DNA of 64,000 bases, taken from NCBI GenBank assembly GCA_004431415.1, contig QPMI01000113.1, forward strand, positions 62,001 through 126,000, in the 5' to 3' direction. Each line of letters opens with the position of its first letter. Within the stretch, counting starts at the first letter, position 1. Of this stretch, positions 29,003 to 64,000 are shown in pieces. This stretch comes from Cyanophora paradoxa CCMP329 (lineage: Eukaryota > Plantae > Glaucophyta). A program made the position numbers and the translations under genes. The notes beneath the pieces were generated by a model. The model was given only the letters and a program-made list of their open reading frames with translations. It made no database searches and had not been told where the DNA came from.

Positions 29003-29466
29003 CCGGAACCCTGCGACGACACATAGGGCTTCAGCGCGCAAACGCGCGCAGGAGAACCGCGGATCTACATCGATCTCGAGATTCACTCCTAGAGCTTAGT
29101 GGCCGCCGGGCGTGAACACGCTGCGCTGTACCTCGAAGTGGTAGTGCGCTGTTCGTCCGGATCGATATCCCGCGGTGTGCGGGAGGTGTGTGCTTGCGCC
29201 GCGCGCGAACCGGCTTGCAATTGCGCGTCTGACCGGCCGTTGCCGCCGACCGCTGGATCAACTTTAGATGTACCCTCGCGAGCTCGAGCTGCCGAGCTGT
29301 ACAATCGAGCGCAACACCGCTCTACGCAAATGGCGTGCGCTGTCCCATCCCATCTAGCTATAGCGCTGCAGATCGGTCCCCACTCCGGGGGCCCGCCCTG
29401 TGCTTTCGAGGGCTGTACCAAAATTCAAAGACAGGAGAAAGTAAGGGGAGGGGAACAGGGGCGGCA

Positions 29467-42836: not shown

Positions 42837-43997
42837 ATGGCTCCGAATACGCGAAGCGGCGGATCCGGAGGCGCGGGCGCTAGTGGCGGATCCGGGGGCG
42901 GCAGCCAGGGCAGTGGCGGGCCCGGGCGGCGGCTGCAGCTGCGCATGCAGCAGCCGTGCCCGCGGCCGCGGCGGCGGCCGCTCCGGCGGCAAACGCGATG
43001 CCAGCGCTAGCTCCGGGGCCAGCGCCGGTCGCGCCAGTGGCGCCGGTCGCACCAGCGGCGGCTGGGCGCCAGTAGCGATCGGGGCCAGCAACCAGCTGCG
43101 GCGGCAGCTGACGCTGCGTTGGAGGCGCTGAAGAGCAACCTGGACATGCATACACGGCACCGCGAGCTGAAAGAATTTAAGGAGCGAATTCCGGCTTTAA
43201 CAAATACTGGCGTTCTATCGTGGATCGTATCGCTGGAGCGCCTGGCAACTTTTATTCAGCCGCCGAAATTTCTGGAGCCGGACAAGATAGTAGCGGAGCT
43301 CGCAATGTCTTCGCTGCAGCGCTCAGCAAGTGATGATTTGACTGGAGCATTCTCAGCGACGGTGCTGGGTGCTATGGCGTCGAAGGCGGCGGGCGGTGAA
43401 TTTGAGATGACGTCGTGGGCAAAAATTCGTGAGCATCTGATCAGCTTGGTGCCTGGCAATAAATTCGAGCTGCTGAAGAATACGATCAAGACGGCGAGCC
43501 AGCATTTCTCAGCTCTAAACAACCCCACGGAGCTGGATGCTCAGGCTCTTATCAATAACGTTGTTTTATTTCGGCACCTGCTTCAGCTGCAAGACTCGTG
43601 TCCGGACGAGATGTTGATCGCGGAATTAATGTCCCCGGACGCGATCACTTCGCCGGCAATGGTCAAGCTCACAAGCAGAATCACGGAGGGCGCGCGTACA
43701 AATCTGGCCGAGTGGGGTCGCGAATTCTTCAGTCGAGTTCGGTCCCATAACGAGCTGGAAATGAGGCTCCAGCGGGTGAGGGCCAGCGGTGGATTTTCGG
43801 ACGCGTCAGTCTCTCGCGTTGCGGGGGGTGAGCTTGGCAGCAGCAGCAAGAAGCAGAAGACGGGCGGACAGCCTCGTTGGTGTGATGAATGCGAGAGCGG
43901 CTCGCACAACACTGTCGTCTGCATCAAGCGACTTCAGCGGGAGCTGGAGGAGATGCGGGCGCAACACATATACCGTAGTACAACGCCCGGCTTTTAG
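42837..43997 (+). pseudogene. Retrotransposon Gag-like ORF (frameshifted 5' part; no pol downstream)
   Basis: Intronless; IPALT..VLSWI..LE and TSWAKIREHL capsid-like motifs; zinc knuckle CDECESGSHNTVVC (CX2CX4HX4C); frame runs into AT-rich DNA just after the knuckle. Confidence 0.7.
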
Positions 43998-44272
43998 ACC
44001 TCGGCTTATTTAAATTGATCTCGTTAGTATATAACCTGTATTTATAATATATCTATCGTGAATATGTGTGTATTTTATCTGTGATATGTATTTATTTTAT
44101 CGTGAGTTATAGCTTCTTTTTAATAAAATATGTGAAATATGTATAGTTTATGTGAAGTTTATCTATATTCTCGATGAGTAGACTTATATATATCGTGAAT
44201 TTCATTATAGTATAGGTGTGACTCAACTAAGTTTAATTATAACTTGCCTCAGTCTAAAAGCCGGGCGTTGTA
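43979..44272. repeat. AT-rich segment bounded by a perfect 21-bp inverted repeat (MITE-like, or terminal structure of the virus)
   Basis: TACAACGCCCGGCTTTTAGAC (43979-43999) and its reverse complement (44252-44272); the outermost TA could be a target-site duplication. Confidence 0.7.
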
Positions 44273-44392
44273 TATGTGTGTTGTTCTGAATTTTCAATGC
44301 ATAAGCGACGATCATGCGTCGTTTCATCAAAAACAACTACCATGAGCTGCATGGAACGTTCGCGCGCATCGAGATCGATCGGCTACGCACAG

Positions 44393-44650
44393 AAACTACG
44401 CAATTTACCGCAACTACTCAAAGAAACTACGCAATTTAATACCGGGAACTACTGAAAAGATACCAAAACTACGCAACTACGCAACTTTCTGAAAAAGTCT
44501 GAAATTCGGGGCGGGAAAAATTTAGAAAAGTGTAAAACTTGCGTAGTTGCGTAGTTTTGGTTTCGTTTGCGTAGTTTTGGTTCCGAATTGCGTAGTTTTT
44601 CAGGGGAAGTTGAGTAGTTTCATGTAGTTTATATATTATAAAGTAGTTTC
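44393..44650. repeat. Iteron-rich palindrome 1 (AACTACGCAA / TTGCGTAGTT arrays)
   Basis: Perfect 22-bp arms 44463-44484 and 44539-44560 with extra iterons on each flank. Confidence 0.85.
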
Positions 44651-44812
44651 TTATTAATATCAATATGATTCTATGATATATACCATGATTTCTCTACTGA
44701 AAAGAGCGCCGGCATACTACAAGGGAAGCTACGCGATCGTTTCGCACTGCAACACGACCGTTTTATAGGCTACGCAATTGTTTCGCACCGAAATGCATGC
44801 GGACTCCCGGGA

Positions 44813-45080
44813 GACTACGCAACTTTAATTAACTACGCATGGAAACTACGCAATCTGATCGCTTTTAATACCGAAAACTACACATTTAATACCAAAACTA
44901 CGCAACTACGCAACTTTCTGAAAAAGTTTGAGAGTAGGGGGGGAAAAAAATTAGAAAAGTGAAAAACTTGCGTAGTTGCGTAGTTTTGGTATTAAATGCG
45001 TAGTTTCCGGTATTAAGTTGCGTAGTTTAACATAGGTAGTTGAGTAGTTTAAAGTAGTTTTTATTAATTATAAAGTAGTT
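44813..45080. repeat. Iteron-rich palindrome 2 (diverged copy of palindrome 1)
   Basis: Perfect 31-bp arms 44883-44913 and 44968-44998; spacer similar to copy 1. Confidence 0.85.
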
Positions 45081-45192
45081 TATTATTTATCTTATTGTTA
45101 TCAGTCTGAGACTCTATGAAAATCGATTGACCTTAGTGTGAAACAGTGCGCCCCGCCCACTATGCAAGATACATGCCTTTTTAATGCATGAG

Positions 45193-48100
45193 TTATGGGA
45201 CTCCATATGCTGTCCAATGGATTGTGCAAGTGATACTTCGGCTTTCAGATAGAGTAGGGATGCTATGAATGTCACATAAATTGTTGTATAGGTAGATGTG
45301 GAGTTTGAGATTCCAATTCTAAAATCTACATCCCCGGGTTTGTTGCAGGAGTTCCTTCAAGTGTGGCAGTTACAACAGGTGTCTTAGTGTAAAAAGCAGG
45401 ATCCCAATTCAAAACCTGTGCATGCTGTGTTCTCTGACCTGCACTTATAGCACCACTGTAAGCTTGAAATTTTCCTGACTTAAATCGTCTTTCTATATCA
45501 TACCAAGTTGGAAGTTGGCTAATTGTATTCGTGGTTCCCGCATTCATTGCATAAAATGCTCTTGCATAAGCATTTCCGCGACAGAGTAGGGTTTTATCAT
45601 AAAAGTTTGCTGAATTGTGGAAGAACCAAGTTTCCTCATTTGTAGGCGATGCAGGTGTTACTATTGAACCCGATCCTACATACATAGTATTATTTGCTGT
45701 GATCGTATTGGCTGTGAATGGATCAAAAGAAGGCAAATCTGTGATTTCTGATTTAGTATGAGTATGGGCGAAATCTGTTATTTGCGCTCTTGTATGGGTA
45801 TGTGCAAAATCTGTGATTTCTGATTTAGTGTGGGAATGAGGTCCGACAGTTGTAGAAGCTGTTGGTTTCCCGTAAATGTTATCCCAATGCAAGAAGCCAC
45901 TTTGTGATGATACAGCAGGGTTTTTACTCCAACCAACAAGACCCACAAGGTAAATTCTTCCTATTCTTCCTTGAACACCCACTTTACTCAGCCCTTCACA
46001 ATTCACCCCGACATATTGCCTAAACTCTACACTCGGATCAGCACCAGGAGAATAAGCATTTACTCTCGAAAGAGTATAGGAATTGGTTGATGGATAAACT
46101 CCTACAACATCAAAGTATCTACTATTGTATTGACACACATAGAAGATATAGCATGTTTTCATTCCAGCAGGCACAGTCCATAACATCTTGTAGCCACTAC
46201 AATCTTCATCACCAGAAGCCCATGTGTTTGCTCCTGAGTAAGGAGATATAAATGTGAAAAATCTCCAATCACCTGTGCGATCTGTGGAAAGACCATTTGT
46301 GGCATCAAAGTTAATTGGAGATGTGTATGTTGGTTTATTTATCAGATCATCGTAATTTCCTGTCGTTGCAACAGTCGCAAGATTAGGTCTATCTGTGATA
46401 TTTGACCAAGCATGAGTATGGGTTGCAGGAGGGAATGTTAAAGGTTTATCTGTGATATTGTTCCATGCATGACTGTGAGTTTGAAGTGCAACACCCAATT
46501 CGGTTTCATCTATATAATTTTTGCTTTGCAGGTAATCATCTGTAACCACACCTGAAAGGGTCTCATTGTGCAAGTTTTTTGCCGCCATTCTCTGATTGGC
46601 TTCAATAGCCCCACCTGATAGCGTTTTTATCCAAGCGATCTCAGCTTTACTGTAATTATCAGTTGGTTGCCCAACAAGTGGAATATAATTGAGTTTATCC
46701 CGAGTGAAAACTATCTTAGGTCTTGATCCATCCAAGCTGCTGACATCTGTCACATTTACATGGACAGCTGCTGAGAAGTCTTGATAACCCGCAGGATTGG
46801 AGGGAACACCGAACCCATCCTTTGGAATATCGTTTTTGTAATAGCTTGTCACATAGATATTGGGGAAGGTGTCACCTGGGTTAACATAGGCTACATCTTG
46901 CACTCGGAATTGAGGCAAGCTTCGGACAAATAGAGGTCCTGTCATTCCACTGCCTGCATCAGCCCCTTTGAGGTGAACATAGTGCTCATTCAAAATAGTT
47001 CTTTCCGCAATATTGCAGGATTTATAAAGGGAAACCCCATATTCACAGGTTCGACTTTTGAGAATTCAGGTTGGTTATTGATCTCATCCCATGTATGCTC
47101 ATGGGTTGCAGGTGGGAATATTGAAGGTCTATCTGTGATATTCGACCAAGCATGAGTGTGGTTTTGTATCCATCCCTGCACCACATTGGATGTAGTGTAG
47201 TTTGGAATTATAGCGTTTGAACCTACTATTAAATTTTTAATTTGGACATAGTCAGAAGCAATTCGCAGATTTTCGGGATAATAAAGCGATTGCGTTTTTG
47301 GGAAGCCGTAATAATCCTGAATATAGTATCTCACCCTTTGCTTCTCCTCAAACGACAATGCTCTGTTGAAAATGATGTATTCGGCTATATCACCTATGAA
47401 ATAGTTAACACCCATCCTACTGAAAGTTGAAGGTGGAAGGTAATTTGTTCCTGTAAATGTTCCTACATCTTGTCCTCTGATTCCGAAGGTTATGTTGTTT
47501 GAAGTTATGGTGGTGTCCCAATAATTAGCTGAATGGGACGCGTAATTGGTATTCACTCGTGGGGCTGTGTAACCCACTCCATTACTCGTAAAAGAATACA
47601 AGCCAAATAATAAGGAGTTTGCATAGCCAAACTCTATTTTATGGGTTCCATCAGGTGATGCAAAATCTAAATGAACTGTTTGCCAATTTGGTGCAGAGTA
47701 GTGACTGCCTACATAGAACAGTGTCATGCCCTCTGACCAATCAACAGTCACAGAGTAGTTTATGAATGCTGACGCAGTATATCCACCCGACTTTCTTACT
47801 ACTTTTTGGTTGTTGAATGAAGGGTTTGCTACGACAGCACCACTGCTCCCGAAAAATGGAAAGTAATCCCTGAAATAAATGGAACTGCTGATGTCGCCCT
47901 ATTGGGGATGAACTGTGACTGAGGATTTGTATTAACAGGAAGCCCATCCATTCTCATTGTTAGAAGGCATTTCGGTGTGGTTTTGGCAGGGTCAGTGTTG
48001 GAAGTAATGGGGTAATAGGGTGGATCATAGTAGACATCGATTTCTGTATTTCCGTCTCCTATTTTCAGCTTTCCCTTTACATTCAGGTTACATGTAACTG

Positions 48101-49933
48101 TAAGATTGCTACCAATCCAAGCGGATCCTGTGTTGCTACTGTTTATTGATTTCACTGTTCCATGCACATCCAAATTACTTGTGGTAAGATTGCTTGTTAT
48201 AATAAGATTTCCATCTATTGTTCCCCCTGATTTTGGCAAGTAGTTGTTGAGCCACCCTAATGTAACATTACTACTTGTGAGAGGAGCCAAGAGTTCGTTT
48301 AATGTAGCTGCACTCACCTTCGAGACAAGCCATCCCTGAACAGTATTTGAAGAGGTTAGAGGAGCTATTTGAGCATTCACAGTTGCTGTATCAGCCTTAG
48401 TAGCAAGCCATCCCTGAACTGTGTTAGAGGAGGTTAGAGGAGCTATCTGGGCATTCACAGTCACTGTATCAGCCTTTGGAGCCAACCAACCCTGCACCAC
48501 ATTGGATGTAGTGTAGTTTGGAATGGTAGCGTTTGAACTAACTATTATGTTCTCAATGTGAACATAATCAGCAGCGATTCGTAGATTGTCAGGATAATAC
48601 AGTGATTGCGTTTTTGGAAAACCGTAATAATCCTGAATATAATATCTCACCCTTTGCTTCTCCTCAAATGACAAGGCTCTGTTGAAAATGATGTATTCGG
48701 CTACATCACCTATGAAATAATCGACTCCCATTCGATTGAAAGTGGAAGGGGGAAGGTAATTTGTTCCTGTAAATGTTCCTACATCTTGTCCCCAATACCA
48801 AAGGTTATAGCATTAGAAGTTATGGTGGTGTCCCAATAATTGGCTGAGTGTGAGGCATAGTTAGTATTAACTCGTGGAGCTGGGTAACTCACCCCATTAC
48901 TCGTAAATGAATACAAGCCAAATGATAAAGATGACCCATACCCAAATGCTATTTTATGGGTTCCATCAGGAGAACCAAAATCTAAATGAATTGTTTGCCA
49001 ATTTGTTAATGAATAGTGACTGCCTACATAGAACAGTGTCATGCCCTCTGACCAATCAACAGTCACAGAGTAGTTTATGAATGCCGCCGCAGTATACCCA
49101 CCTGACTTTCTTACTACTTTTCGGTTGTTCAATGCAGCATTAGCTGCAACAGTTCCACTACTTCCCCAAAATGGGAAAGTAATCCCTGAAATAAATGGCA
49201 CAGCTGCTGTCGCTCTATTGGGGATGAACTGATTGTAAGGATTTGTGTTAACAGGAAGCCCATCCATTCTCATTGTATAGAGGCATTTCGAAATGGTTGT
49301 AGCAGGGTCAGTGTTGGAAGTAACAGGGTAATAGGGTGTGTTATAGAAGACATCAATGTTTGTATATTTGTCTCCAATTCGCAAGTTACTGGTAACTGTA
49401 AGGTTTTCATTTATTTTCAAATTGCTTGTGATCGTTCCACCAACAAGAGATAGGTAGTTAGACGAAACAAAGTTTTGAGTAGCCACAGGCATTTTTTGTA
49501 TATATATGTTACTTGCCCCAATTATAGGTGCCACAATGGGCACATCCGAATTAACGAGATTGCAAGTGATGGAAAAAATCGTTTTGGGGGCGAACAGATT
49601 GCAATCAAAGGTCACAGTGGCGGGATCGATAGTAGGATCGACATTTGAACAGATCTGAAACATCCACCCACCCACACAGTTGCAATTTAAATTGCGAAAG
49701 GCTGTGCCTGCCATTGCATCCACATAGCCAATCCCATTTGCAATGTCATAGATGTGACCAAACTCGTAACCGAAAAGGTCATTCCATAGGTTAGAAGCCA
49801 TAGCTCCCATCACATAGCCTTTTAGATTAACAATTAGGTCATTGGATTCACTGGGTATATTGGCATGGGTTATATAAAATTGATTATCCAATACAGCATT
49901 CTTTACTGTCGTTTCTACTATGGGTTCCGTCAT
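45193..49933 (-). CDS. Giant fibre/spike-like protein (~1,580 aa once five single-base frameshifts are corrected; ORF-track pieces 48779-49933, 47829-48731, 46990-47751, 45326-46993)
   Basis: Duplicated LamG-like domain ending GD(I/V)AEYIIFNRALSFEEKQRV; phage tail-fibre repeats HTHAWSNITDRP, LATVATTGNYDDLINKP, HTHTKSEITDF; C-terminal ...TIHWTAYGVP*. Confidence 0.75.
47170..49385. repeat. ~0.9-kb internal duplication (~47170-48070 vs ~48490-49385) with three 78-bp repeats between the copies
   Basis: Near-identical nucleotide blocks ~1.32 kb apart; APLTSSNTVQGWL(A/V)xK repeats. Confidence 0.85.
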
Positions 49934-49971
49934 TATTTCTCTATTATGGCATAATACAAAAATTAGGGTCG

Positions 49972-52900
49972 CTACATAACATTTGGAACATGTTCATATA
50001 TTCTCCCTTCTCGCTGTGCCATTTCCGCCATAAAGTCTGCATTATCTTTTATTATTGATTCAGCCATTCGTTCTGCTCGCGATTTTTTGGGTGCTGCCCT
50101 ACTTGCTGGTGGTTGATCAGTTCTCACTACACTAAGACCATGCCCCTCGGCTGACCTCACCTCTAACCCCACATCTCCTTCGGCTGTTTGGGTCACATTC
50201 AGTTCAGGCGTTGAGTATTTATTACCTGCTCCTGCAATGGTTCTGTCTATGCAAGCACAACATAAAGCTCGGAATTTGTATGCAAGCACAAGTCCAAGGG
50301 CACCGAGAATTGGCAAGAGAATGAGAAGCACTAACGTCCCGGGATCCATTCCTGGCGATCCGACTGGATTTGTAGGATTTGAGGGATTATTAGGTGTCGT
50401 GTTCGGATCTGGATCAGTTGTAGGGGGATCTTTTGAATCGGGATCTGGGTTAGGCTGGTTCGGATTGGGATCGTTTGGTGGCGGCTCTGTCGACCCTGAC
50501 AATGATGTTGGCGCTGTGTATGCATTCGCAAACACGATGGGAGCCGTCGCTGGATTTCCTGTTGAAGACCCTGTGATTGCACCATAGGTATCTGACAGGT
50601 ATTTATATAATTCCTTTGTCACAGGCGGATTGCTCACAGATCGGCACACCCAAATATTGCATGTAGTATCATAGACTGTGTCCCTGATAAATGGCGGTAG
50701 AGCTGTCCCACTAAATGACTCAAAGAGCCCATTTCTCGATAGCAACCTATGGGCTGCATCACAGTTCCCACCCTCGAAATATTTGGTAGCCGAAATTGCA
50801 CCTTGCACATAAATATTGCAAGTCGAGTGCATTCCAATGTTATTTAGGTTGGGAGTGTATCTATCATCGAGCCGGACAGTGCACACCCATGGGGAAGCGG
50901 TTTTAATATATTTCTTATCGCCCACTTCAATTACATCTGTATTTGGGTGGCTGTCAAGCTGAGTCCAAACAGCATCATACCTGAAAGTGTAATAAACTAA
51001 GAGACCATCTGTGGACGATGTGAAAGCAAAGAAGGTCATAAAGTCCGTGGATCCAAAGAAGTCAGCATTGGTCGATGTTAGGGTGACTCTGGGATAGCTC
51101 ATGTTGACAGTCTCAGAAGGATATGGAATATATGAGGTGTAATTACGATTGAAAAGATAATAGTGAAATCCATCTGAGACATTCGAGTGAGTGGGCAAGG
51201 TGACTGTTAAGGTCTTACTGCGATTTTCAAACGTGTTTTGTATGACAATATTGCAAGTATTAATATATCGAGAATCGAAAAAGTAATTATTTGTGACTCT
51301 GTTATCGATCACAGTCGCATTGGTTCCATTAAACACGAAATTCTGCCCATTGATCCTTGTAGTATATAGGTCGGTCACATCGAGTGGATACTTTATTTTT
51401 AACCTATCAGTATCATCATACTGGGGAGTCTGACCCACAGCTGACCACCCTACTGTGTATGGGGGATATTCGAATTTCGCTGTGGTGGCATTATATGTAT
51501 AGAAGTAGACACCGACTGGGTAGCCATTGATATAAGTATGGATCGTAGGATCGGCTACAAGATTAAAGCCTGTTGTGGTGACATTCTCTGCTCGAAAAAC
51601 GGTAGTATATTTGGGTGCTGGTGTTATGCCTCCTGTGGGCTGGGCGAAATATCGATTGGTATCTACTATGGTAACAGATGGTGGGGCATTAAATGTCGAT
51701 GTGAAGGTAATAGGTATACTAATCGACTCTGATGGAGTATATCTATAATAGAAGCCATTTACCATACTTAATAATTCTGAGCTCGGGAATGACCTGCTAC
51801 CTGTCTGAGTCATAGGAGTAAATGCTTTGATATTGTGGTATGATATACTGGGTGTCGGGGAGTTTACCAAAGCGACAGCATCTGCGAAATCGGACTTTGT
51901 TATATAGAGCTCTTTAAGATATTCTCGTTTGAAGGGGTTTGTGGGTTCGCCTATCTGTATATTGGAAGCTGGAAAGGGGACGACATTATTTACCTGTAAA
52001 TCTCGGTAAACCTTTACTCTGGGTTTGCTATCGAATATAGGGGTGACATAATTGATAGTAAGAGTGAAGCTTACATTTGCTATTGTGTTTAGCGAGTTGT
52101 TTCGGATGGTAATTATATTACTGAGATTGATAAACGAAACCTGGAACCCTGTGGAGGTGATATTATGGACATATGCTTTATTAGATTCATTAGTGTAAGT
52201 AACATTGTTATAGTAAACTGTGTGATCGACCAAGGTCACAGTAGGTAAAGCCTCGAAACCTGTGACACCCAATTGACCCCATGTAAATGTGTAGGTCGGG
52301 CTATCAGCATACACCACATAGACTTCGAGCCCTGCGATCTTTTGAGGGTAACCTGTGACCTCGTAGGTCTCAGTTCGCGAAACTGAGCGGGAAAGGTTGC
52401 TATTAAAGTCGTTGTAGCTGATCAGAGCTCTCTCATCAGTGGGTAAATCACTGGGTCGGACTGAGTGATTGAAAGGCAAGATTATGTTACTTGTTTTTGA
52501 GGTCGTGCTATAAAAATTGGTCGTGTGCAAGTCATCAAACCACCCATCATAGGCATACACATTGAGCCATTTCTTAACAGCATCAGTGTTAGATTGCCCG
52601 AGATTAAACTGATGATCGAGCAAAGGCACCAAATCGCGGGATAAATACATGATCGCATCAGTGATGGTGATTGCACCTGTTAAAACAGCGAGCCCTGCCG
52701 TGTTTGCTGCGGTAGCAATTGATAAACCCGAGATTTCGAGATCCTGGGCTACATCTCGCTCGTTTCTTGTGAATCGCTCACTATAAAACTCCTTTACAAG
52801 GTCGACCCCCATGACATCAATTAAATGCGGTCGAGTGAGGGTGATATTGCTTGTGATGCTCTGCGAATATTTAACAGGATCCCATTCGACGACAGCTGTT

Positions 52901-53208: not shown

Positions 53209-53226
53209 TTGTAATATAAGATTATT

Positions 53227-54201: not shown

Positions 54202-54228
54202 TTTTATTTCCTATTAATAAAGAATAAA

Positions 54229-55515: not shown

Positions 55516-55547
55516 AATTAATTTCTCAACGGAAGATAAAACGAAAT

Positions 55548-56996
55548 ATGGATCCCACGACCTCGCTTTCCCGCCTCACGCTCAAATCCGTCCTCGAAAC
55601 CCCGGAGGATTACAAGAGCATGCTTTTGGATCGCGGATTTATTGTTGGTGTCGACAAGCAATTCAAGCCTTCTCGTGTTGAGGTGCTCCCAATTGCGGAT
55701 CCCGGCAATCTGTTCTCCTCTACTGGTGCTACCACTCGTGTGGTCTTCTATCTCCCTCGCTACAATTGGTGCAATGGTATTAGCCTCCAAGTTACCATCC
55801 CATCGGCGAAGGCGCTGACTGCCATCGCCAAGACCTCTGCTGACTGCTCGGCTGATCTATTCAATACTGGATTCGTCCGCGGGCTTCCTGGCTCGTTTGT
55901 TCAGCGAGTCAGCATTAAATACGGGTCGTATGAGCAAATTATTCCCGCTGAGCGACTGGTAGATTACGCTTTCCTGGCTAACACTCCGGCTGAATTCGAT
56001 CAAAAGAAGCGCAAGCATGGGCTGCATCTCGGACCGAAGGTAGAGGGCGGCAACCAAGCTGGCGGCATTTTTACCATGCGAATTCCAAGCTTCCTCGATG
56101 CTGGCGTGCCCATCGGTGCGCTCCCATCCGAAATCGCGGTCGAAGTATATTTCCAAACCCCTGCGCTGCTCGAAACTGCGGCGGTTCCTGGCGTTTACGC
56201 TCAGAATAACACGACTGCAATTACTGCTGCCAATTCGACTGATGGCGAGACGACGCTTGCTGTTGCGGCTGCTTTCGGAAATATTAAGACCTTAGCCCAC
56301 CCTAATGCCACTGCGATTTTCGATAGTGCGGCTCTCACACCTACACCTGCACTTGCGAATCTGGAAATGACGACCCCTCGTATTGTTATGGACGCTGTTA
56401 ACATCGATGAGGAAACGATGGGCGAAATCATTACTCGTGTTAAGACCTCTGGCATCGCCATCCCCTACACTGATATTCAGTTTGCGGATTATACCGGTCT
56501 TGCTCTCGGCTCTGGTCTCCGCCTGTCGCTATCTCAAATTTCTGGGCTTGTTTACGCACTTGTTGTCAAGGTTCGCGACGAAAACACACTCGGCGATAAT
56601 AAAGGAGGGCACTCTACTGTCCGCACCCTTGCCTTCGATGATAATGTCGTGATGCAAGTCCTAAACAACAACAATTATCTATATTCCAACACTGGTGTCC
56701 CGCTGCAATCTGCGGCTATGGAGCTCGCCGATAAATTCAAGATGACCAACTGGATCGATAGCAACAAGCGCCCCATTTACACTGGCTTCTGCTTTGCCCT
56801 CGATGGTAAAGCGGCGCTCAAAGGTGAGAAGGCGACTGGCTACGTCGATCTAACGCAATCAGCGTCGAGCTTCCTAATCCTCACACCCAATGGCACACCC
56901 CTCGCCACCTGGTCGAAGGTCAGTGTTCAGATCTCGGCTTACTGCCACAATATTCTTGTGATGAATGCCAACGGTATTTCTCGCATCAGCGCTTAA
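55548..56996 (+). CDS. Major capsid protein (double jelly-roll, PLV type)
   Basis: 482 aa, beta-rich, between penton and packaging ATPase; VVFYLPR...ISLQVT, SFVQRVSIKYG, YTGFCFAL...TGYVDL...AYCHNILVM match PLV/virophage MCP layout. Confidence 0.8.
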   Translation: MDPTTSLSRLTLKSVLETPEDYKSMLLDRGFIVGVDKQFKPSRVEVLPIADPGNLFSSTGATTRVVFYLPRYNWCNGISLQVTIPSAKALTAIAKTSADCSADLFNTGFVRGLPGSFVQRVSIKYGSYEQIIPAERLVDYAFLANTPAEFDQKKRKHGLHLGPKVEGGNQAGGIFTMRIPSFLDAGVPIGALPSEIAVEVYFQTPALLETAAVPGVYAQNNTTAITAANSTDGETTLAVAAAFGNIKTLAHPNATAIFDSAALTPTPALANLEMTTPRIVMDAVNIDEETMGEIITRVKTSGIAIPYTDIQFADYTGLALGSGLRLSLSQISGLVYALVVKVRDENTLGDNKGGHSTVRTLAFDDNVVMQVLNNNNYLYSNTGVPLQSAAMELADKFKMTNWIDSNKRPIYTGFCFALDGKAALKGEKATGYVDLTQSASSFLILTPNGTPLATWSKVSVQISAYCHNILVMNANGISRISA

Positions 56997-57042
56997 TCGG
57001 GCTGTGGCGTTTCGTAATTTTTATATGTTTCTTATAAGGGAA

Positions 57043-57954
57043 ATGGATATACAAGATCTGAGTGAGTTTGACCCGGGAAGCCTGGATTTCCCAAATCGAG
57101 CCGTTTTTGTGGGCAAAACAGCAACTGGGAAGTCAGTGTTTTTGAAATACCTGCTTTACCACAATGAGGACAAGATAGATTCGGTGATGATATTCGCCTC
57201 CACGATCTGGAATCATCAATACGACAATGTCACATCATACTTGTATGAGGATTTCGACCATAAGCTGATTGACAATATATTACAGAAACGCAAGGAGAGG
57301 ATCAAGAAAAAGGAGAAAGTCGGTAACCTGTTAATTGTGCTGGACGATTTCGTGGATAATCCGAGTTTATCAATGGCGGGAAAGGGTGAGCCTATACTAA
57401 ATCAGCTATTTTGTGCTGGAAGACACCTGTTTGTGTCCGTGTGGATTTTGTCACAGAAACTCACGAAGATTTCGCCCACACTCAGAGTAAACGCCGAATA
57501 TATATTCCTGTTCTCATTGCCCAATAGAAAAGAGATGGAGAGCGCTGAGGACGAGTTTAATCCATACGAAAAGCGCTGGTTCGAGAAGGTGATGACCGAA
57601 TACAGTCACAGCTATCAGGTAATCGTGGTAAACAACGCGAAATATAGCCTGGAATTCTCTGTGGGCAAAGCGGATCCGGTGCCTGACGAATATAAATTCA
57701 AGCGGTTCTTTAAAAAACCGGCGGACGACATAAAGACCGCTGGTAAACAGCCGGTAAAACCGACGTCGGGCGCGGTAAATGGCGACCAACCCCAAACCAC
57801 CGATATTACGAAACCTGTGAGTGGAAACGTCGCAACCTTAAAGCGATCCACCAAACGAATAATCGAAGCCGACCTACTTAAAGACCCCAATCTATTGCTG
57901 GCATACCAAGAAAAGCGCCGCCCAAAATTTGCAAAGAAATTGGGTAAATTTTGA
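57043..57954 (+). CDS. A32/FtsK-like genome packaging ATPase
   Basis: Walker A GKTATGKS, Walker B LLIVLDD, GRH motif, ILSQ...ISPTLRVNAEYI. Confidence 0.93.
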   Translation: MDIQDLSEFDPGSLDFPNRAVFVGKTATGKSVFLKYLLYHNEDKIDSVMIFASTIWNHQYDNVTSYLYEDFDHKLIDNILQKRKERIKKKEKVGNLLIVLDDFVDNPSLSMAGKGEPILNQLFCAGRHLFVSVWILSQKLTKISPTLRVNAEYIFLFSLPNRKEMESAEDEFNPYEKRWFEKVMTEYSHSYQVIVVNNAKYSLEFSVGKADPVPDEYKFKRFFKKPADDIKTAGKQPVKPTSGAVNGDQPQTTDITKPVSGNVATLKRSTKRIIEADLLKDPNLLLAYQEKRRPKFAKKLGKF

Positions 57955-57977
57955 ATAAATTTCTCGCATAATGATAA

Positions 57978-58544
57978 ATGCCACCCAAGAACTCGCGGAA
58001 AGCGATCCAAATGGAAGATCAAAGCGCTGTTGTCGCTGGCAAGATTAATCCTGCGGAGGATGCTGGTCGCACTGGCGGTGCTGCGGCTTCTGACCAAATA
58101 GATTTCGACCTAATTGACCCGAATACAAAGGTTTCAGAGCGTGCTCAAAAGGTGGATGCTAAGCGGGAGCCGGTCGATTCCACTGATAGAAAGCTGGCGG
58201 ATCAATCCCTCGCTGAATCACAGCTCACAGGCGAAAAGCTTACTGATAACAAGGTGGTAAAAGCCGAAGCAACAGCCGCTTTACCTGCCTCTATGGAAGC
58301 CCCTAAAAAGCGGGCATCTGTCTATGTGACCAAGGGCGAGAAAGTCGGTCAGGAATTAGAGGAGAAGTTTAGGGCGCTCGAAGCGCGACTGGCTACATAC
58401 GACACTACTGTGCGAGCCTTTGATGATTTCACTAAGGAATACAAACAGCGCAAGCTGATTAAACAAGCTGTTCGCGTGGAAATGGAAAAGAAGCGGGCAA
58501 CTGTTCCGATGTTCAGACAGTCGAAAGAAAAGAGACAGTCATAG
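57978..58544 (+). CDS. Hypothetical viral protein (charged, coiled-coil C-terminus)
   Basis: 188-aa ORF with AT-rich upstream motif, directly after the ATPase. Confidence 0.65.
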   Translation: MPPKNSRKAIQMEDQSAVVAGKINPAEDAGRTGGAAASDQIDFDLIDPNTKVSERAQKVDAKREPVDSTDRKLADQSLAESQLTGEKLTDNKVVKAEATAALPASMEAPKKRASVYVTKGEKVGQELEEKFRALEARLATYDTTVRAFDDFTKEYKQRKLIKQAVRVEMEKKRATVPMFRQSKEKRQS

Positions 58545-58619
58545 CTGAAAATGCACCAAAGCCGGGCGGTTTCGTTAACCCATCGGGTGTGCATGCACAG
58601 CCGGGTGCCAATCTGTCAT

Positions 58620-58859
58620 CTATGTTCGGTGGGCGTCGTCGCTTCTAATGTGCAAGTCGTTCAAACATAAATGAATCCGCCCGTATTTAGAGCGGGTCTT
58701 AATATGAATTCCCTTGCAAAAGGGACAGGTCGGCTCCACAAACACCATTATAAGGTCGACTAATTCGTATGGGAACACGCGAGCAAGTAACACCCTCATT
58801 CCCTTTTCTTTTCTCCAATATTTAATACGTTGTGCAATATTAGGGTCGATGAATTTCAT
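58620..58859 (-). CDS. Hypothetical small viral protein with CPFC motif
   Basis: ATG at 58859, MKFIDPNIAQRIKYW...PTCPFCKG. Confidence 0.4.
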   Translation of the reverse strand: MKFIDPNIAQRIKYWRKEKGMRVLLARVFPYELVDLIMVFVEPTCPFCKGIHIKTRSKYGRIHLCLNDLHIRSDDAHRT

Positions 58860-58876
58860 CACACAATGCATTGAGA

Positions 58877-59196
58877 TGTTTCACCTGCATTTCACAAGCA
58901 CGTGCCACAACTCCTGCTGCGACACAACCGTAGAGGTTGACATTTCGGACGAGGATAATGGAGGTAGGCGACTCTCTGTATATTCCAACCACAGCGAAAA
59001 TCACGATCGCCCCCGATCTCGATCGCCCTCGCCTGTGCCCGCTGACTCCAATATAATCCCACAGACAGCAATAGAAGACGTGCAAGTATCCTATATACGG
59101 CGCCGGTCGTGCCCTAATTTCGTAGAAGGTCATATTCGCGTTGATTCGCCATATCCGCCAATAAATCCGCTTTATTTGGGCGAATACGATCGCTGA
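58877..59196 (+). CDS. Hypothetical small viral protein
   Basis: MFHLHFTSTCHNSCC...RSRSPSP; divergent from the preceding ORF. Confidence 0.4.
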
Positions 59197-59223
59197 AACT
59201 ATTTTCGCGTTAAATAGTATCGA

Positions 59224-59364
59224 ATGCCCGACCCTGATCTCTACGCGATCCTATACAGGAAACGCGCGCAATATGCACTGGAAGCCGCTATTAAAAAACG
59301 TAGAGAAGAGCTCGCTTCGGTCACAAAAAATGACAGCTCAGAAAATGATTTAAAGAAGAAATAG
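59224..59364 (+). CDS. Hypothetical 46-aa viral protein
   Basis: MPDPDLYAILYRKRAQYALEAAIKKRREE...; below the ORF-track cutoff, fills the intergenic gap. Confidence 0.35.
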   Translation: MPDPDLYAILYRKRAQYALEAAIKKRREELASVTKNDSSENDLKKK

Positions 59365-59413
59365 CAAAGACCACTGATAAAAATATTTTCTCAGCTTAAA
59401 GTAAGGTAAACCA

Positions 59414-59635
59414 ATGGAGACGCATGCTATGACTGTGTATGATAAGAACGGGAACCCGGTAGATCTCGATAAGGCGGGCTGGCGTGTCAGGGATATATAT
59501 AAACAGCGGATGCGCTATAACGACGATCCCGAATATCGCGAATTAAAAAAGAAAAAGGCGCTGGAATATTACTATCGTCGCAAGCAAGAAGAGGGCATTC
59601 ACAGTGGAAACCGCGGGCGACCCCGCAAGTATTGA
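59414..59635 (+). CDS. Small basic protein with C-terminal AT-hook
   Basis: 73 aa ending NRGRPRKY (AT-hook core RGRP). Confidence 0.6.
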   Translation: METHAMTVYDKNGNPVDLDKAGWRVRDIYKQRMRYNDDPEYRELKKKKALEYYYRRKQEEGIHSGNRGRPRKY

Positions 59636-59817
59636 ACGCAATCCGCCGCTGAATCCATTCCTTATTTTTCAAGCGGCTTTCCGATGCATATCGGCAAGCT
59701 CCCCAATCGTTTTTAGTCATCGGGAAAAAATTTGTAGGGCATTTAAAGACAACTCGCCAAAATTTGATCAGCCTAAGAAAAATTAATTTCTTGCATTAAG
59801 GTAGAAAGACATCGAAA

Positions 59818-62232
59818 ATGGCGAAGATGACATCGAAACAAAAGACTTTACTCCAAGAGCTCGCTGATTGGCTGCGTGGCGATGAGACCTTGTCGAAAAA
59901 CACGATTATTCCCATGAAAGACGAGGTAAAGGAGCCCTTCTACGGACATAAAGGCGGTAAATGGAACTGGGAACGATATGATGAAGCCTTTAAGTCCAAT
60001 CAGTTCACAAACTGGGGCATTCTGCTGTCGAATTCGATGATGGTCGTTGATTTCGACGATGAGGAAACGTATCAGAAATTCGTTGAGATGTTTCCCGATG
60101 ATTTCGATGCCCATCAGCCGCTCGAAAAGACTCGAAAGGGCTACCATGTATTCTTTCGACGCCCTGATGAGTTCGATAAGCTGAAAATCACAGATAGCGC
60201 GCCGGCTTTTAAGGGATACAAGAAGGTCGACCTCAAAACCATCACTGGCACTGGCACTTCGGGACTTCTCAATGTATGTCCAAGCCCTAATAAGACCTGG
60301 GTAATTAAGCCGTGGGCACCGTCGTGCAAGTTTAATGAGCCCTCTGACGCTTTCTGTAAATGGATTATCGAGAACTACGATTACAAGCATGCCAATAATC
60401 CACAGCCGAAAGCGGGAAATTCGAGCAAGGATAATACCGAAGCTGCTATTATTGCCGGACTGTGTGGCATGGGGTTCCTATTCCCAAATATCTATGCACG
60501 CCGCGATGAGGGCTTTGACTTTAATTCGGCTAACAAGGGGTTCCAGTGTCCCTGCTGCGATGAATCCCACGATTCCAATAACTGGTGGGTGAAGAAAAAG
60601 CGAGATGGCAAGTATAATGAGTATATTGTGAAGAGTTATAGCGAGAACTGCGAGCCGAAAGAGTTCTCGGTTAACATAGAGCTGACCGAGGAAGAGAAAC
60701 ACCATTTAGAAATTAACACTCTCATTGACAAGACCGTTTCAGTTGAAGGTGCCCATTATCCTGTTGCAATCATCTGCGCCAAGATCCTGAAAGCGACCAC
60801 AAAATATTCAAATGATGTCTGGTTTAACCTTTACCCCAAAAATGGTATCTGGAAATATGACAAAACGGACAAGTCGATACTCTCTAAGATCCCCGAGCAT
60901 GTGGCACAGTGGTTCTTTAAGAGGGCGGGCTATCATCTTTCCAATGCTGTTAGTGCAAGTGGAGATGATCTTGTGAAGGAAAAGGCTGAGAAAAGCGCCC
61001 ATATGTTGCTGGCAATTCACAAGAGGATTCAGAATACACCGTATCAAAAGTCGCTGGAACCGCATATTATCACACAGCTGCAAGACGATGACTTTATGGC
61101 GACTCTGGACACAGTTCCCAATATTGTGGGGTTTACTAATGGCGTGTTTGATTTAAATAATATGACTTTCCGCAAGGGGACGACGGAAGATATGGTGAGC
61201 AAGACTGTCGGCTTTGATTACTGCGAGGAAGTTGATGAGGCAAAGGTTAAAAGGCTGAAAGACATTTATTTGGATATCTGTGGCGGAGATATGGAACTCT
61301 ACAACTACCTGATCAGCCTCTATGCATATGCACTCACAGGTAAAACCGACCTGCAAACGTTCTATCTATTCACAGGTGTCGGTGCTAATGGAAAGAGTGT
61401 GATTGAAACGTTTATGCAAGAGACATTCGGTGATTATGCTCGCCCGATTAGCATTACTTTGCTCACACAAGTCCACAAAGCAAATAGCCCGATTCCCGAG
61501 CTTGCTAATAAGCAAGGTGTCCGGCTCACCCATGCAAACGAACCTAATGATGGCGACAAGCTTCTATGCGGTATGATGAAGACACTGACAGGTGGCGAGC
61601 TCTGCACAGCCCGAGGACTTTTCAAGGATCCTATTGATTTCAAGCCTCGGTTTACTATGGTGATCCTGTGCAACAATAATCTGGAAATCGAAAAGCCCGA
61701 CAAAGCTATTAAGCGTCGGTTCCGATCGATCCCATTCCGCTCTGTTTACTCACCTAATCCCAAAGCCGGAGAGAAGAAAGCGGACGAAACCCTCATGGAA
61801 ATGTTTGAGGGCGACGAGAAAAATGAATACAAGCGGGCAAATATTCAGATTCTCATCGATATGCTCGCTACTGGCAAAGTTAAAGAGATCCTGCAAAACC
61901 CGCCGCAATCTGTCATCGAGCATAGCGCCAAATATCTCGACGACAGCGATAAGCTGGGTTCCTATCTGCGCGAAAATTACAAGCTGTCAGAGGAAAAGGG
62001 CGCCCATGTTGCCTGTGATGAGGTATTCAAAGCTTGCGCGGAAATGATGCGAAGCTACGATATCAAGACAAAGGTTACCACTCGCACTATCAGTAACAAA
62101 GTGCTCGAAACATTCAAAATTGAATCGACTGTGACTACAATTAAAGGGAAGTCGAAGCGAGTTTATAAGGGGCTCACTAAGATCGCCAAGACACAGTTTG
62201 AAGACGAAGATGAGGATGATATAGAAGCGTAA
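59818..62232 (+). CDS. Primase-helicase: Prim-Pol (AEP) + Zn-binding + D5-like SF3 helicase
   Basis: VVDFDD and TRKGYHVFF (AEP motifs), CPCCDESH, VGFTNGVFDL (D5_N), Walker A GVGANGKS, KTLTGG...ARGLF, ILCN...AIKRR. Confidence 0.93.
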   Translation: MAKMTSKQKTLLQELADWLRGDETLSKNTIIPMKDEVKEPFYGHKGGKWNWERYDEAFKSNQFTNWGILLSNSMMVVDFDDEETYQKFVEMFPDDFDAHQPLEKTRKGYHVFFRRPDEFDKLKITDSAPAFKGYKKVDLKTITGTGTSGLLNVCPSPNKTWVIKPWAPSCKFNEPSDAFCKWIIENYDYKHANNPQPKAGNSSKDNTEAAIIAGLCGMGFLFPNIYARRDEGFDFNSANKGFQCPCCDESHDSNNWWVKKKRDGKYNEYIVKSYSENCEPKEFSVNIELTEEEKHHLEINTLIDKTVSVEGAHYPVAIICAKILKATTKYSNDVWFNLYPKNGIWKYDKTDKSILSKIPEHVAQWFFKRAGYHLSNAVSASGDDLVKEKAEKSAHMLLAIHKRIQNTPYQKSLEPHIITQLQDDDFMATLDTVPNIVGFTNGVFDLNNMTFRKGTTEDMVSKTVGFDYCEEVDEAKVKRLKDIYLDICGGDMELYNYLISLYAYALTGKTDLQTFYLFTGVGANGKSVIETFMQETFGDYARPISITLLTQVHKANSPIPELANKQGVRLTHANEPNDGDKLLCGMMKTLTGGELCTARGLFKDPIDFKPRFTMVILCNNNLEIEKPDKAIKRRFRSIPFRSVYSPNPKAGEKKADETLMEMFEGDEKNEYKRANIQILIDMLATGKVKEILQNPPQSVIEHSAKYLDDSDKLGSYLRENYKLSEEKGAHVACDEVFKACAEMMRSYDIKTKVTTRTISNKVLETFKIESTVTTIKGKSKRVYKGLTKIAKTQFEDEDEDDIEA

Positions 62233-62563
62233 ACGACATCCAAACAATCATTAACTACATCATTTTTTAGTAACTACGCAACTACATAGCGAAGCTACGC
62301 AATTTAATACCGGCAACTATGCGCTATCAGACCTACCTATACGCATGTCCTGACTGCGGACGAGATCACCCAAACCGCGACCATGGATATTGAAGCCACA
62401 CAGGATCTTTTCAGGCGAATATTCGGTTACTACCCGAATTGCCGCGGTAAAAAGACAAAAACCCATGTTATCAAATCTGACACTATGCAACTGACAATAG
62501 AGCTGCCCGAAAACGTAAGACTAACGGTAAGAAGTGTCACAAAGCTAACTTAGGCACTTGCAA

Positions 62564-63058
62564 TTAATGGTATTGTTGCAAACTCTCAATACGACAAACT
62601 GGACAGGAAAAACGTTGTTTATAAGTCATTTCGGATATGCAAGATTCACACACAGAACTATTACACTGCGCACAAGCTAAATCTTCCGTTTTTATAACCT
62701 CTAAACAAATCACACACTTAACTTCCCCATCTTGTTTTTTAGAAAAGCCCGATATAACATTTTGTATTACCTCAATGCATTTCTCTTTCGTAATGTCAAG
62801 TGGTATTAACATTTTATATCCTTTGTAAACCAATGCGCATATGTGCTGCCTACGAGGATGGTAAAACTGGGAAGCCATATTAAGATGTAAAAACATGTTC
62901 TGATGTTTACGCGTTTGTGATATAACAAAGATTACCTTCTTACGGGCATTCTTCTTTTCCCATTTGAGATAGTTCTTGTCTGTGCATTCTTTTGTTGCTT
63001 CTGTTACGGGAATATTTGTAAGTGTCTTACAATATTCTATTATCTCTTGGGTATTCAT
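62564..63058 (-). CDS. RING-finger protein (putative E3 ligase)
   Basis: CVIC...CAQCNSSVCESC...CPVCR. Confidence 0.8.
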   Translation of the reverse strand: MNTQEIIEYCKTLTNIPVTEATKECTDKNYLKWEKKNARKKVIFVISQTRKHQNMFLHLNMASQFYHPRRQHICALVYKGYKMLIPLDITKEKCIEVIQNVISGFSKKQDGEVKCVICLEVIKTEDLACAQCNSSVCESCISEMTYKQRFSCPVCRIESLQQYH

Positions 63059-63188
63059 TGTGTTTCTCTATATCTGATACACATAAAATGTTTTCCTCCG
63101 TGTCATTTTTTGAGATGTCCTTAAATATGTTTCCACATTTTTTGAACGCGTCCTTTCCCGAAATTAAAATGTTCCCTTAGAGTAAAAG

Positions 63189-64000
63189 ATGCCCCGCCAA
63201 ACTAATCGCCTTATAAAAGAGAAAAAGACGAAATATTAGGCTTGTTAGGTAGTCTTTTAGTCACTGGGGAGATCACCGAAGCCGAATATGATCGTAGGGC
63301 GGCGATCTTAGATCGAAAACCCCGCTTAGCTAACCTTGCGAATATTGCCGACGAGCTTTACAATCGCCTGGAAAATGTGGAGCGCTTCTATACCGAAGGG
63401 AGGCGCTTAGCCGTCATAGAACCCGATGAGGAAGACGGTTTCGCAATGAATAAAGCGTATGCCTGGTATAGCTATAAGGCGGATGAACAGATAATCTTAG
63501 ATCCGGTGGAATTTCTCACTACCATCGCTGCAAACCTGCCTGGGCGGCTGAAAGAACGGCTGGACGAGCTTAAAGCTATTAAGGTGCGCCTTACTTTCAT
63601 CTGCCGATACGTAAAAGTGAGTGATCCTAACGTTTTTATCACTAAACACATTTATAGCGATTATTTCGTAATCACAAGGTCGCGCAATATTCTCACTGAG
63701 TTAGTGGGTGTAGCTCAGCAAATGAATGAACAGATGATACAGGTCGACAGCTACCGGCTCAGTAAATTAGATAAGCTACATGTCGTCGTTTTATCATATG
63801 CGCCGATGGGCGGTTGCTACATTGAGACCCCCGAATGGATTGGATTAAAGCGAGCCACAGTAAATATTAAGAATATCGATGGTCACGACTGCTTTAATTA
63901 CGCTATCCTCGCATGGCTGCACAGAAACGACATAAACAGACACAAACGTAATGATCCGTTCCAATATAGGCGGTGGATGACTGAACTCGACTTCTCAGGC
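63189..64000 (+). CDS. 5' part of protein-primed DNA polymerase B (terminal protein/vOTU region); one frameshift near the start, runs off the window
   Basis: Open frame 63206 to the end, absent from the ORF track: YAPMGGCYIETPEWIGLKRATVNIKNIDGHDCFNYAILAWLH...ELDFSG, the characteristic N-terminal signature of Polinton pPolB. Confidence 0.85.

What the first reader, a model, noticed from the sequence alone, without database searches (positions are those of the whole stretch)
43979..64000. Near-intact endogenous Polinton-like virus in a GC-rich, intron-dense algal chromosome
Seen: an abrupt switch to AT-rich intronless DNA carrying at least 20 kb of viral genes (MCP, two pentons, A32 ATPase, Prim-Pol/D5 helicase, pPolB start, RING, two giant fibres). 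Known: this set defines Polintons, PLVs and virophages. Inference: core ORFs have no nonsense codons, so the provirus is young and may still make particles. The host looks like a primary-plastid alga, possibly a glaucophyte, a group whose viruses I know little about. No integrase or maturation protease is visible in this window.
Basis: partly seen in the sequence, partly recalled or inferred. Interest (0 to 1): 0.85.

Follow-up and report, generated by a model that had tools for sequence, protein, structure and literature searches.

The report
Endogenous Polinton-like virus of Cyanophora
This is 20 kb from one end of a Polinton-like virus genome assembled into a chromosome of the freshwater alga Cyanophora paradoxa, next to a cut-off retrotransposon gene that it likely interrupted; it belongs to a group of several hundred such proviruses already catalogued in this alga, and whether any of them still makes particles is untested.

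Summary
The observation largely holds. The host is Cyanophora paradoxa: a flanking exon is 100% identical to its NAA25 gene model. From 43964, GC falls from about 72% to 43.5%, and the DNA carries a double-jelly-roll MCP, an A32 ATPase, a primase-SF3 helicase, a RING protein, two paralogous penton-like ORFs and fibre-like genes. The MCP is 40% identical to a C. paradoxa MCP already listed by Bellas 2023 (366 MCPs, about 7% of the genome). Bulzu 2025 annotated 156 glaucophyte elements: 85 with rve integrase, none with protease or tyrosine recombinase. The family is therefore known. Added here: the element is multi-copy; it abuts an LTR-retrotransposon gag that it cuts off in frame; the three fibre frameshifts are likely assembly errors; and differences between copies fall at third codon positions (11 of 13). 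The pPolB call is unconfirmed, and particle production is untested.

The parts
38655..39152 (+). Coding stretch of the host NAA25/MDM20 (NatB auxiliary subunit) gene, which runs from about 36.8 to 41.4 kb; left host flank
   Evidence: 100% identical over 166 aa to P0003 = EukProt EP00741_Cyanophora_paradoxa tig00000448_g864.t1, Pfam PF09797
41631..42351 (+). Probable 5' LTR of a multi-copy retrotransposon (starts TG; likely ends ACA, followed by a TGG primer-binding-like site); right end inferred
   Evidence: A host-depth contig ends at 41660, 30 bases into the TG start. Contigs over this part are about 1.5-3 times deeper than over the gag. Sequence. PBS identity not tested.
43146..43963 (+). 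gag-like ORF with a CX2CX4HX4C zinc knuckle, cut off in frame at 43963
   Evidence: Motif read from the translation. No Pfam, PHROG or NCBIfam hit. Contigs in 4 of 4 runs leave the window after 43963/43964 with the same other sequence, which by my reading keeps the frame open. Depth about 7-9 times that of host contigs.
43964..44282 (.). Left end of the viral element: AT-rich 320-bp unit closed by inverted arms (43979-44021 / 44230-44272)
   Evidence: Inverted repeat I5; DNA fold -38 kcal/mol, z -5.1, 0 of 100 shuffles as stable; a contig 14-16 times host depth runs through the right arm
44392..45101 (.). Subterminal repeat region: two 143-bp direct repeats 429 bp apart, each pairing with an inverted arm; 15 copies of a 9-mer motif (candidate TIR/origin region)
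   Evidence: 17 matches in the window against 0.21 expected; 15 of the 17 lie here
45326..49933 (-). Fibre-like gene 1: 1536 codons in span, four ORF pieces in this sequence, with an internal 896-bp duplication of a lectin-like module and phage-tail repeats
   Evidence: PHROG tail/fibre hits to E 2e-9; Pfam PTR E 2e-4 and LamG E 3e-3, both under cut-off. At the three breaks (near 47034, 47857, 48789; all G/C runs) contigs of 4 of 4 runs carry one more base. The duplicated module differs mainly at third codon positions, 77 of 125.
49972..53208 (-). 1078-aa fibre-like or membrane-anchored protein
   Evidence: Open ORF; H-lectin E 0.008, under cut-off; hydrophobic segment near the C-terminus seen by eye
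53227..54201 (-). Penton (minor capsid)-like ORF 1, 324 aa; identity inferred
   Evidence: DUF5901 E 6e-4, under cut-off; paralogue of ORF 2 with conserved N- and C-terminal blocks; no PDB hit
54229..55515 (+). Penton-like ORF 2, 428 aa, divergently transcribed from ORF 1; identity inferred
   Evidence: no PDB hit
55548..56996 (+). [quoted passage not shown]
   Evidence: 40% identical, E 3e-73, to P0001, whose length, contig and visible first 400 residues match Bellas 2023 Table S2 row 106 (HHpred 98.5% to an iridovirus MCP). Model at pLDDT 40: best Foldseek PDB hit iridovirus MCP, E 7e-7; VIA-align ranks 1-6 are DJR capsid or scaffold proteins, Z 9.0-10.4, rmsd 4-5 A, 152-159 residues, N-terminal barrel only.
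57043..57954 (+). A32-type packaging ATPase (the ATG at 57043 is more likely than the one at 56965)
   Evidence: PF04665 E 3e-10; Walker A motif in the translation; in-frame ATGs listed
57978..59635 (+). Small ORFs of unknown function (188, 115, 46 and 73 aa)
   Evidence: no informative family hit
59818..62232 (+). Primase-polymerase (AEP type) fused to D5/SF3 helicase, 804 aa
   Evidence: (phrog_1156 E 6e-57)
62273..62319 (+). Isolated internal copy of the subterminal motif block
   Evidence: 86% identical over 43 bp to 44409-44451
62564..63058 (-). RING-finger protein, 164 aa (putative E3 ligase)
   Evidence: PF13639 E 3.5e-6
63212..64000 (+). Open frame running off the window (263 aa stop-to-end; first ATG at 63446; an out-of-frame ATG at 63189). 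Candidate terminal-protein/vOTU N-terminus of a pPolB or of a Tlr1-like helicase
   Evidence: Frames. The KNxDxxxCF-type motif is recalled, not from a call. No tool confirmation.

Best explanation
The stretch 43964-64000 is the left part of one copy of a multi-copy Polinton-like virus family in the Cyanophora paradoxa genome, which likely integrated into the gag gene of an LTR retrotransposon and likely lies there as a silenced provirus that is still coding-intact. Inferred mechanism: a linear dsDNA genome with structured ends is packaged by the A32 ATPase into a DJR capsid with pentons and lectin/tail-repeat fibres, without a maturation protease. It is replicated by the primase-SF3 helicase, possibly together with a protein-primed polymerase encoded at the right edge. 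It is inserted by an rve integrase predicted to lie beyond 64 kb, and then held silent by host CpG methylation. Shown: host, gene set, MCP fold (N-terminal barrel), many related copies, in-frame truncation of gag. Inferred: integrase type, order of insertion, pPolB identity, silencing of this copy, capacity to reactivate.
For: Host exon 100% identical to the C. paradoxa gene model. MCP: 2 hits among 1.84 billion representatives, the best a catalogued C. paradoxa EVE MCP; the leading fold hits are DJR capsids in three searches. ATPase, primase-helicase and RING hits. 20 of 24 listed runs, all one organism label, 17 named studies, 2012-2024, hold 0.58-0.63 of the words of 53200-62300 (one may be the window's own source). 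547-1397 contigs per run, spanning 99+ to under 90% identity, lie on 40.5-54 kb, and single viral contigs are about 5-19 times deeper than host contigs (a rough sign of many copies, not a copy number). Listed copy differences inside the fibre ORFs: 11 of 13 at third codon positions, p 2e-4 (from the 40 rows shown of 665). gag family contigs diverge at 43963/43964 in 4 of 4 runs. Glaucophyte EVEs in PMC12220804 Table S6: rve 85 of 156, tyrosine recombinase 0, all nine protease columns 0, DNA_pol_B_2 49, D5_N 40. Viral-origin genes are methylated and silent in C. paradoxa (PMC12344493).
Against: The right end, integrase, TIR pair and TSD lie outside the window and were not seen (no genome held). 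The MCP model is poor (pLDDT 40, pTM 0.37, TM about 0.25), and the second barrel was barely aligned. The pentons and pPolB are not tool-confirmed. In one run, two contigs continue left of 43979 with sequence absent from the window, so this copy's left end may be truncated or polymorphic. The published assembly was corrected by majority-rule short-read mapping (PMC6704402), which can blur copy-specific stop codons, so 'intact' may be partly borrowed from sister copies.
Confidence: 0.85

Rival explanations
1. Polinton/adintovirus-like self-synthesising element (pPolB + rve integrase) that lost its protease and gained a primase-helicase; nucleus-replicating and autonomous rather than a helper-dependent PLV. 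This is a rival in classification and lifestyle, compatible with the same anatomy.
For: pPolB (49 of 156) and rve (85 of 156) are common in glaucophyte EVEs. Proteins related to an Alpha-adintovirus-like PolB/integrase element were noted in C. paradoxa contigs (PMC8502044). A candidate TP-vOTU start lies at 63.2-64 kb.
Against: The MCP falls with clusters Bellas lists as 'new', not with the Maverick-Polinton-Adintovirus columns. No Ulp1 protease was found here or in 156 elements. AEP-S3H is described as a PLV replicase.
Confidence: 0.25
2. Decaying or left-truncated provirus: a deletion removed the true left terminus together with the rest of the retrotransposon, and the fibre frameshifts are real, so this copy is dead although sister copies may be intact.
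For: Contigs that continue left of 43979 with other sequence; three breaks in fibre 1, a possible fourth near its C-terminus and a possible one before the 63.2-kb ORF; this copy differs by about 1-2% from the dominant contigs.
Against: All supported indels are single bases in G/C runs, the usual long-read error (PMC10120064 reports such artefacts in EVEs). Differences are biased to third codon positions. No stops in the core ORFs.
Confidence: 0.25
3. Misassembly: the virus family is real in the culture, but this copy was joined to the NAA25 locus through the repeated retroelement.
For: The join runs through a 2.3-kb multi-copy repeat.
Against: The published C. paradoxa assembly used reads of about 15 kb with 1-kb minimum overlaps (that the window comes from it is inferred from the gene-model name). 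The gag/virus boundary is sharp, with no shared repeat, and the retro copy carries its own variants.
Confidence: 0.06
4. Virophage (mavirus-like endogenous element) or giant-virus fragment.
For: Mavirus, Sputnik and NCLDV MCPs appear among the fold hits; giant-virus insertions are reported in C. paradoxa.
Against: C. paradoxa has 0 MCPs in Bellas's virophage clusters and 0 of 156 MCP-VIR. No protease is seen. The gene set is compact, with no hit to NCLDV transcription genes among the ORFs scanned.
Confidence: 0.03

Closest known systems
Cyanophora paradoxa EVE MCP clusters of Bellas et al. 2023 (PMC10120064; Table S4 'new' clusters 16 and 24 by my column count, 272 + 94 MCPs; Table S2 representative on tig00020904)
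   Same: Same species; MCP homologous over its full length (40%, E 3e-73); GC drop; artefact-type frameshifts; retrotransposon beside the insertion.
   Different: Only 40% identical to the listed representative, so a distinct subfamily. Which cluster number it belongs to, and whether this locus has its own ID, could not be read because the supplement file was cut.
156 Glaucocystophyceae EVEs annotated by Bulzu et al. 2025 (PMC12220804 Table S6)
   Same: A32 ATPase (139 of 156), D5_N (40), Prim-Pol (8), no protease; a PTR-PTR-H_lectin fibre is described from a C. paradoxa PLV.
   Different: The rve integrase (85), pPolB (49) and lipase (89) common in that set are not inside this window. That paper describes retrotransposons nested in PLVs; here the arrangement points the other way.
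Polintons/Mavericks (Polintoviricetes) and adintoviruses
   Same: DJR MCP, packaging ATPase, genomic integration, possibly a TP-vOTU-pPolB.
   Different: No Ulp1 protease seen; AEP-S3H present; MCP not in the Maverick-Polinton clusters.
Cultured PLVs Gezel-14T and TvV-S1; EMALE provirophages of Cafeteria
   Same: Mid-sized DJR viruses of algae or protists with phage-like fibres; EMALEs are AT-rich insertions associated with retrotransposons (partly recalled; Ngaro nesting cited).
   Different: Unrelated MCP groups; no helper virus or particle has been shown for any glaucophyte element in my searches.

Membership tests
Polinton-like viruses (Preplasmiviricota) | [quoted passage not shown] | tested here: met
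   (top hits DJR; N-terminal barrel aligned, second barrel poorly modelled) plus homology to a published HHpred-confirmed MCP
Polinton-like viruses (Preplasmiviricota) | A32/FtsK-type packaging ATPase | tested here: met
   PF04665 E 3e-10
Polinton-like viruses (Preplasmiviricota) | [quoted passage not shown] | tested here: inconclusive
Polinton-like viruses (Preplasmiviricota) | Own replication protein (AEP-S3H, PolA-S3H, S1H or pPolB) | tested here: met
   Prim-Pol + D5/SF3 fusion; type described for PLVs
Polinton-like viruses (Preplasmiviricota) | 14-40 kb genome bounded by terminal inverted repeats, with TSD if integrated | not testable with these tools
   Only the left 20 kb is in the window; no genome held. 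A structured left end is present.
Polintons (Polintoviricetes) | Protein-primed PolB | tested here: inconclusive
   263-aa edge frame without tool hit; TP-vOTU also begins Tlr1-like helicases
Polintons (Polintoviricetes) | rve integrase | not testable with these tools
   Not in the window; 85 of 156 glaucophyte EVEs have one
Polintons (Polintoviricetes) | Ulp1-type cysteine protease | tested here: inconclusive
   None among the scanned ORFs; right arm unseen; 0 of 156 in related elements
Virophages (Maveriviricetes) | Virophage-type MCP plus protease | tested here: inconclusive
   Virophage MCPs rank below NCLDV-type MCPs in the fold searches; the species has none in the published virophage clusters; no tree built
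LTR retrotransposon (left neighbour) | TG...CA LTR, PBS, gag with CCHC knuckle, pol | tested here: inconclusive
   TG start, depth step and CCHC motif present; second LTR and pol are not in the window; no family hit

The most novel reading that the evidence does not exclude
The glaucophyte-restricted, protease-less PLV lineage is still infectious. Copies such as this one, carrying two replication systems (primase-SF3 helicase plus protein-primed polymerase) and a shared upstream motif, are methylation-silenced proviruses that make particles when demethylated or when the giant virus whose remains lie in the same genome infects the cell. They integrate into resident retrotransposons as safe sites. 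That would be the first working virus system of the glaucophytes, testable in an axenic model alga.
Probability: 0.2. Interest if true: 0.72.

Novelty: already known. Interest (0 to 1): 0.3.

Why it matters
As a discovery it adds little, because the family was counted and annotated in this species in 2023 and 2025. Its value is as a well-preserved example. My searches found no isolated glaucophyte virus and no study devoted to these elements. An open-frame copy in an axenic, methylation-mapped alga makes a standing question testable: are such PLVs autonomous, dependent on a giant virus, or dead? The apparent insertion of virus into retrotransposon, the reverse of the nesting described, bears on target choice.

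Tried and rejected
Whole-genome access: none held, so the right arm was not seen.

MCP relatives: the word-based protein search found none, or only P0002 with the 3-sequence profile. Viral and metagenome contig scans with the MCP, ATPase, edge ORF and helicase found no confirmed locus. The single-sequence MCP model was unusable (pLDDT 31). The PDB sequence search gave nothing. The protein atlas gave no answer.

Expression: no RNA holder listed; this says nothing about expression.

Junction cover: by depth arithmetic, no laid contig covers 43965-43974 in runs X20 and X4 (X2 and X16 are compatible but not solvable). The host/LTR contig reaches only 30 bases past 41631, short of the 31 needed to count as bridging. 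Contigs drop rare joins, so this is neither support nor refutation.

MITE idea: the 290-bp inverted-arm unit as an independent TA-flanked MITE was considered and set aside, because a deep contig continues from its right arm into the same viral flank.

Other checks: the gag continuation is not elsewhere in the window (one chance-level match inside a viral ORF). The recalled mimivirus early-promoter octamer occurs twice, both far from the listed start codons. No general CpG depletion (element o/e 0.95). DUF5901 has no literature in the library. Earlier scan notes: nothing. No MCP tree was built, since only three sequences were available as tool-given data.
Full report
1. What is there. GC is 0.72-0.74 in the host part and 0.435 in 43964-64000. 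ORFs cover about 94% of 45326-64000. Family scans give an A32 ATPase (PF04665 E 3e-10), an 804-aa Prim-Pol/D5-SF3 fusion (PF08706 E 9e-8, TIGR01613 E 1e-37, phrog_1156 E 6e-57), a RING protein (E 3.5e-6) and tail-fibre-like repeats (E to 2e-9). No integrase or protease hit appeared in the 16, 15, 8 and 9 ORFs scanned.

2. Host. The coding stretch 38655-39152 is 100% identical over 166 aa to P0003, EukProt EP00741_Cyanophora_paradoxa tig00000448_g864.t1.

3. The capsid. The 482-aa ORF has no Pfam, PHROG or NCBIfam hit. A full HMMER scan of 1.84 billion representatives found 2 relatives: P0001 (40%, E 3e-73; C. paradoxa tig00020904_g15213) and P0002 (37%; unnamed, Logan). P0001 has the same length, contig and visible residues as row 106 of Table S2 in PMC10120064, where HHpred gives 98.5% to an iridovirus MCP. 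A model from the three-sequence alignment is weak (pLDDT 40, pTM 0.37). Even so, Foldseek's best PDB hits are iridovirus, PBCV-1, faustovirus, PRD1 and mavirus capsid proteins (best E 7e-7, TM about 0.25), and BFVD gives the same picture (best E 1e-8). VIA-align ranks six DJR proteins first (Z 9.0-10.4, rmsd 4-5 A, 152-159 residues within 37-298), ahead of seipin at 8.1. The first barrel is thus supported directly; the second rests on full-length homology.

4. Weaker calls. The two ORFs before the MCP are paralogues (E 5e-5, shared N- and C-terminal blocks). Their position and a sub-threshold DUF5901 hit fit pentons, but no fold was tested. The edge frame 63212-64000 has no informative hit. 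I recognise its last 65 residues as the vOTU-type start of Polinton polymerases from memory only. bioRxiv 10.1101/2024.03.18.585575 says the TP-vOTU start is shared by pPolBs and Tlr1-like helicases, and both types occur in glaucophyte EVEs (49 and 34 of 156), so 'pPolB' is open.

5. Copy number and integrity. 20 of 24 listed runs, one organism label, 17 named studies, hold 0.58-0.63 of the words of 53200-62300. Laid on 40.5-54 kb, four runs give 547-1397 contigs from 99+ to under 90% identity. Host contigs have depth 43-48 (X2) and 52-72 (X20), and the long viral contigs I compared are 5-19 times deeper. This is a rough sign of a family of related copies. Fibre gene 1 spans 1536 codons but is split three times in the window. 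At each break, all in G/C runs, contigs of 4 of 4 runs have one more base, which points to long-read errors, though breaks private to this copy are not excluded. Of the 13 listed substitutions inside viral ORFs, 11 are at third codon positions (p 2e-4; only 40 of 665 rows were shown). The duplicated fibre module differs at third positions in 77 of 125 mismatches. Divergence therefore accumulated under selection for protein function, which supports recent activity of the lineage more than it dates this insertion. Against over-reading 'intact': the published assembly was corrected by majority-rule short-read mapping (PMC6704402).

6. The left junction. A host-depth contig ends at 41660, 30 bases after a TG at 41631, where depth rises. 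An ORF at 43146 carries a CX2CX4HX4C knuckle. In 4 of 4 runs the family contigs, about 7-9 times host depth, leave the window after 43963/43964 with one shared continuation that by my reading keeps the frame open. The virus therefore abuts a truncated gag of a multi-copy LTR element; insertion of the virus into gag is the simplest reading, and a later deletion is the alternative. The viral end is structured: a 320-bp fold-back (z -5.1), then two 143-bp repeats with inverted arms and 15 copies of a 9-mer. Two contigs in one run continue left of 43979 with sequence not in the window, so the true terminus is unresolved. Short-read contigs could neither confirm nor refute the joins (see Tried and rejected).

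7. Prior knowledge and what I read. PMC10120064 (parts 2-3 of 7 of the text; rows of supplement file 2, which is cut; snippets of file 3): 366 MCPs in C. paradoxa, two 'new' clusters (272, 94), an estimated 7.3% of the genome, five loci drawn; stop codons in EVEs are often assembly artefacts. PMC12220804 (abstract, passages, sections 7, 11, 42, supplement rows): 156 glaucophyte EVEs with rve 85, tyrosine recombinase 0, proteases 0; one PTR-PTR-H_lectin fibre. PMC12344493 (passages): 32% CpG methylation, viral-origin genes methylated and silent, giant-virus insertions in C. paradoxa. PMC8502044 (passages), PMC6704402 (passages), bioRxiv 2024.03.18.585575 (passages and Introduction). Unseen parts of the supplements and external data sets probably list this very locus; I could not check. 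Searches found no paper devoted to these elements and no isolated glaucophyte virus.

8. Verdict. A real, well-preserved member of a PLV family already catalogued in this species (confidence 0.85). It works like an integrating PLV, probably through an rve integrase, and is probably silenced. Membership of Polintons proper is undecided, and virophage is unlikely. Novelty: already known. Interest 0.3, rising to about 0.7 if particles can be induced.

Noticed in passing
window 55518-55527, 57956-57965, 59383-59392, 59783-59792; looser copies before 54229, 57043, 59224, 63189: A shared AT-rich motif (W4-TTTCTY, often followed by TAA) lies 22-35 bases upstream of 4 of 13 viral starts (11 sites in the element; 0.12 expected from shuffles). 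The pattern was chosen after seeing these sites, so its significance is inflated. Candidate viral promoter, possibly for a helper-virus polymerase.
   Followed up: partly
window 45326-49933: Fibre gene 1 is CpG-depleted (o/e 0.45) while the core genes are not (1.0-1.2), suggesting a different history or long exposure to methylation for this module.
   Followed up: no
window 62273-62319: One copy of the subterminal motif block sits between the helicase and RING genes; it could be an origin-like site or a scar where two modules or elements joined.
   Followed up: no
window 50199-50373 and 45735-45834: Many loose ends and joints among contigs in the Pro/Asn-rich linker of the 1078-aa protein and in the repeats of fibre 1: these surface-protein regions vary between copies.
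   Followed up: no
window 49972-50330 (-): The 1078-aa 'fibre' ends in a Pro/Asn/Asp-rich linker, a hydrophobic stretch and a charged tail, like a membrane-anchored protein rather than a free vertex fibre (by eye).
   Followed up: no
window 24500-29500: Host stretch of lower GC (0.57) holding an ISN1 IMP-specific 5'-nucleotidase gene (PF06437 E 3e-11) and other intron-split genes.
   Followed up: partly
window 41631-43963: The LTR retrotransposon family (about 7-9 times host depth) has a gag with no Pfam, PHROG or NCBIfam hit; a second, more divergent relative shows in the contigs (loose ends at 43744 and 43943).
   Followed up: partly
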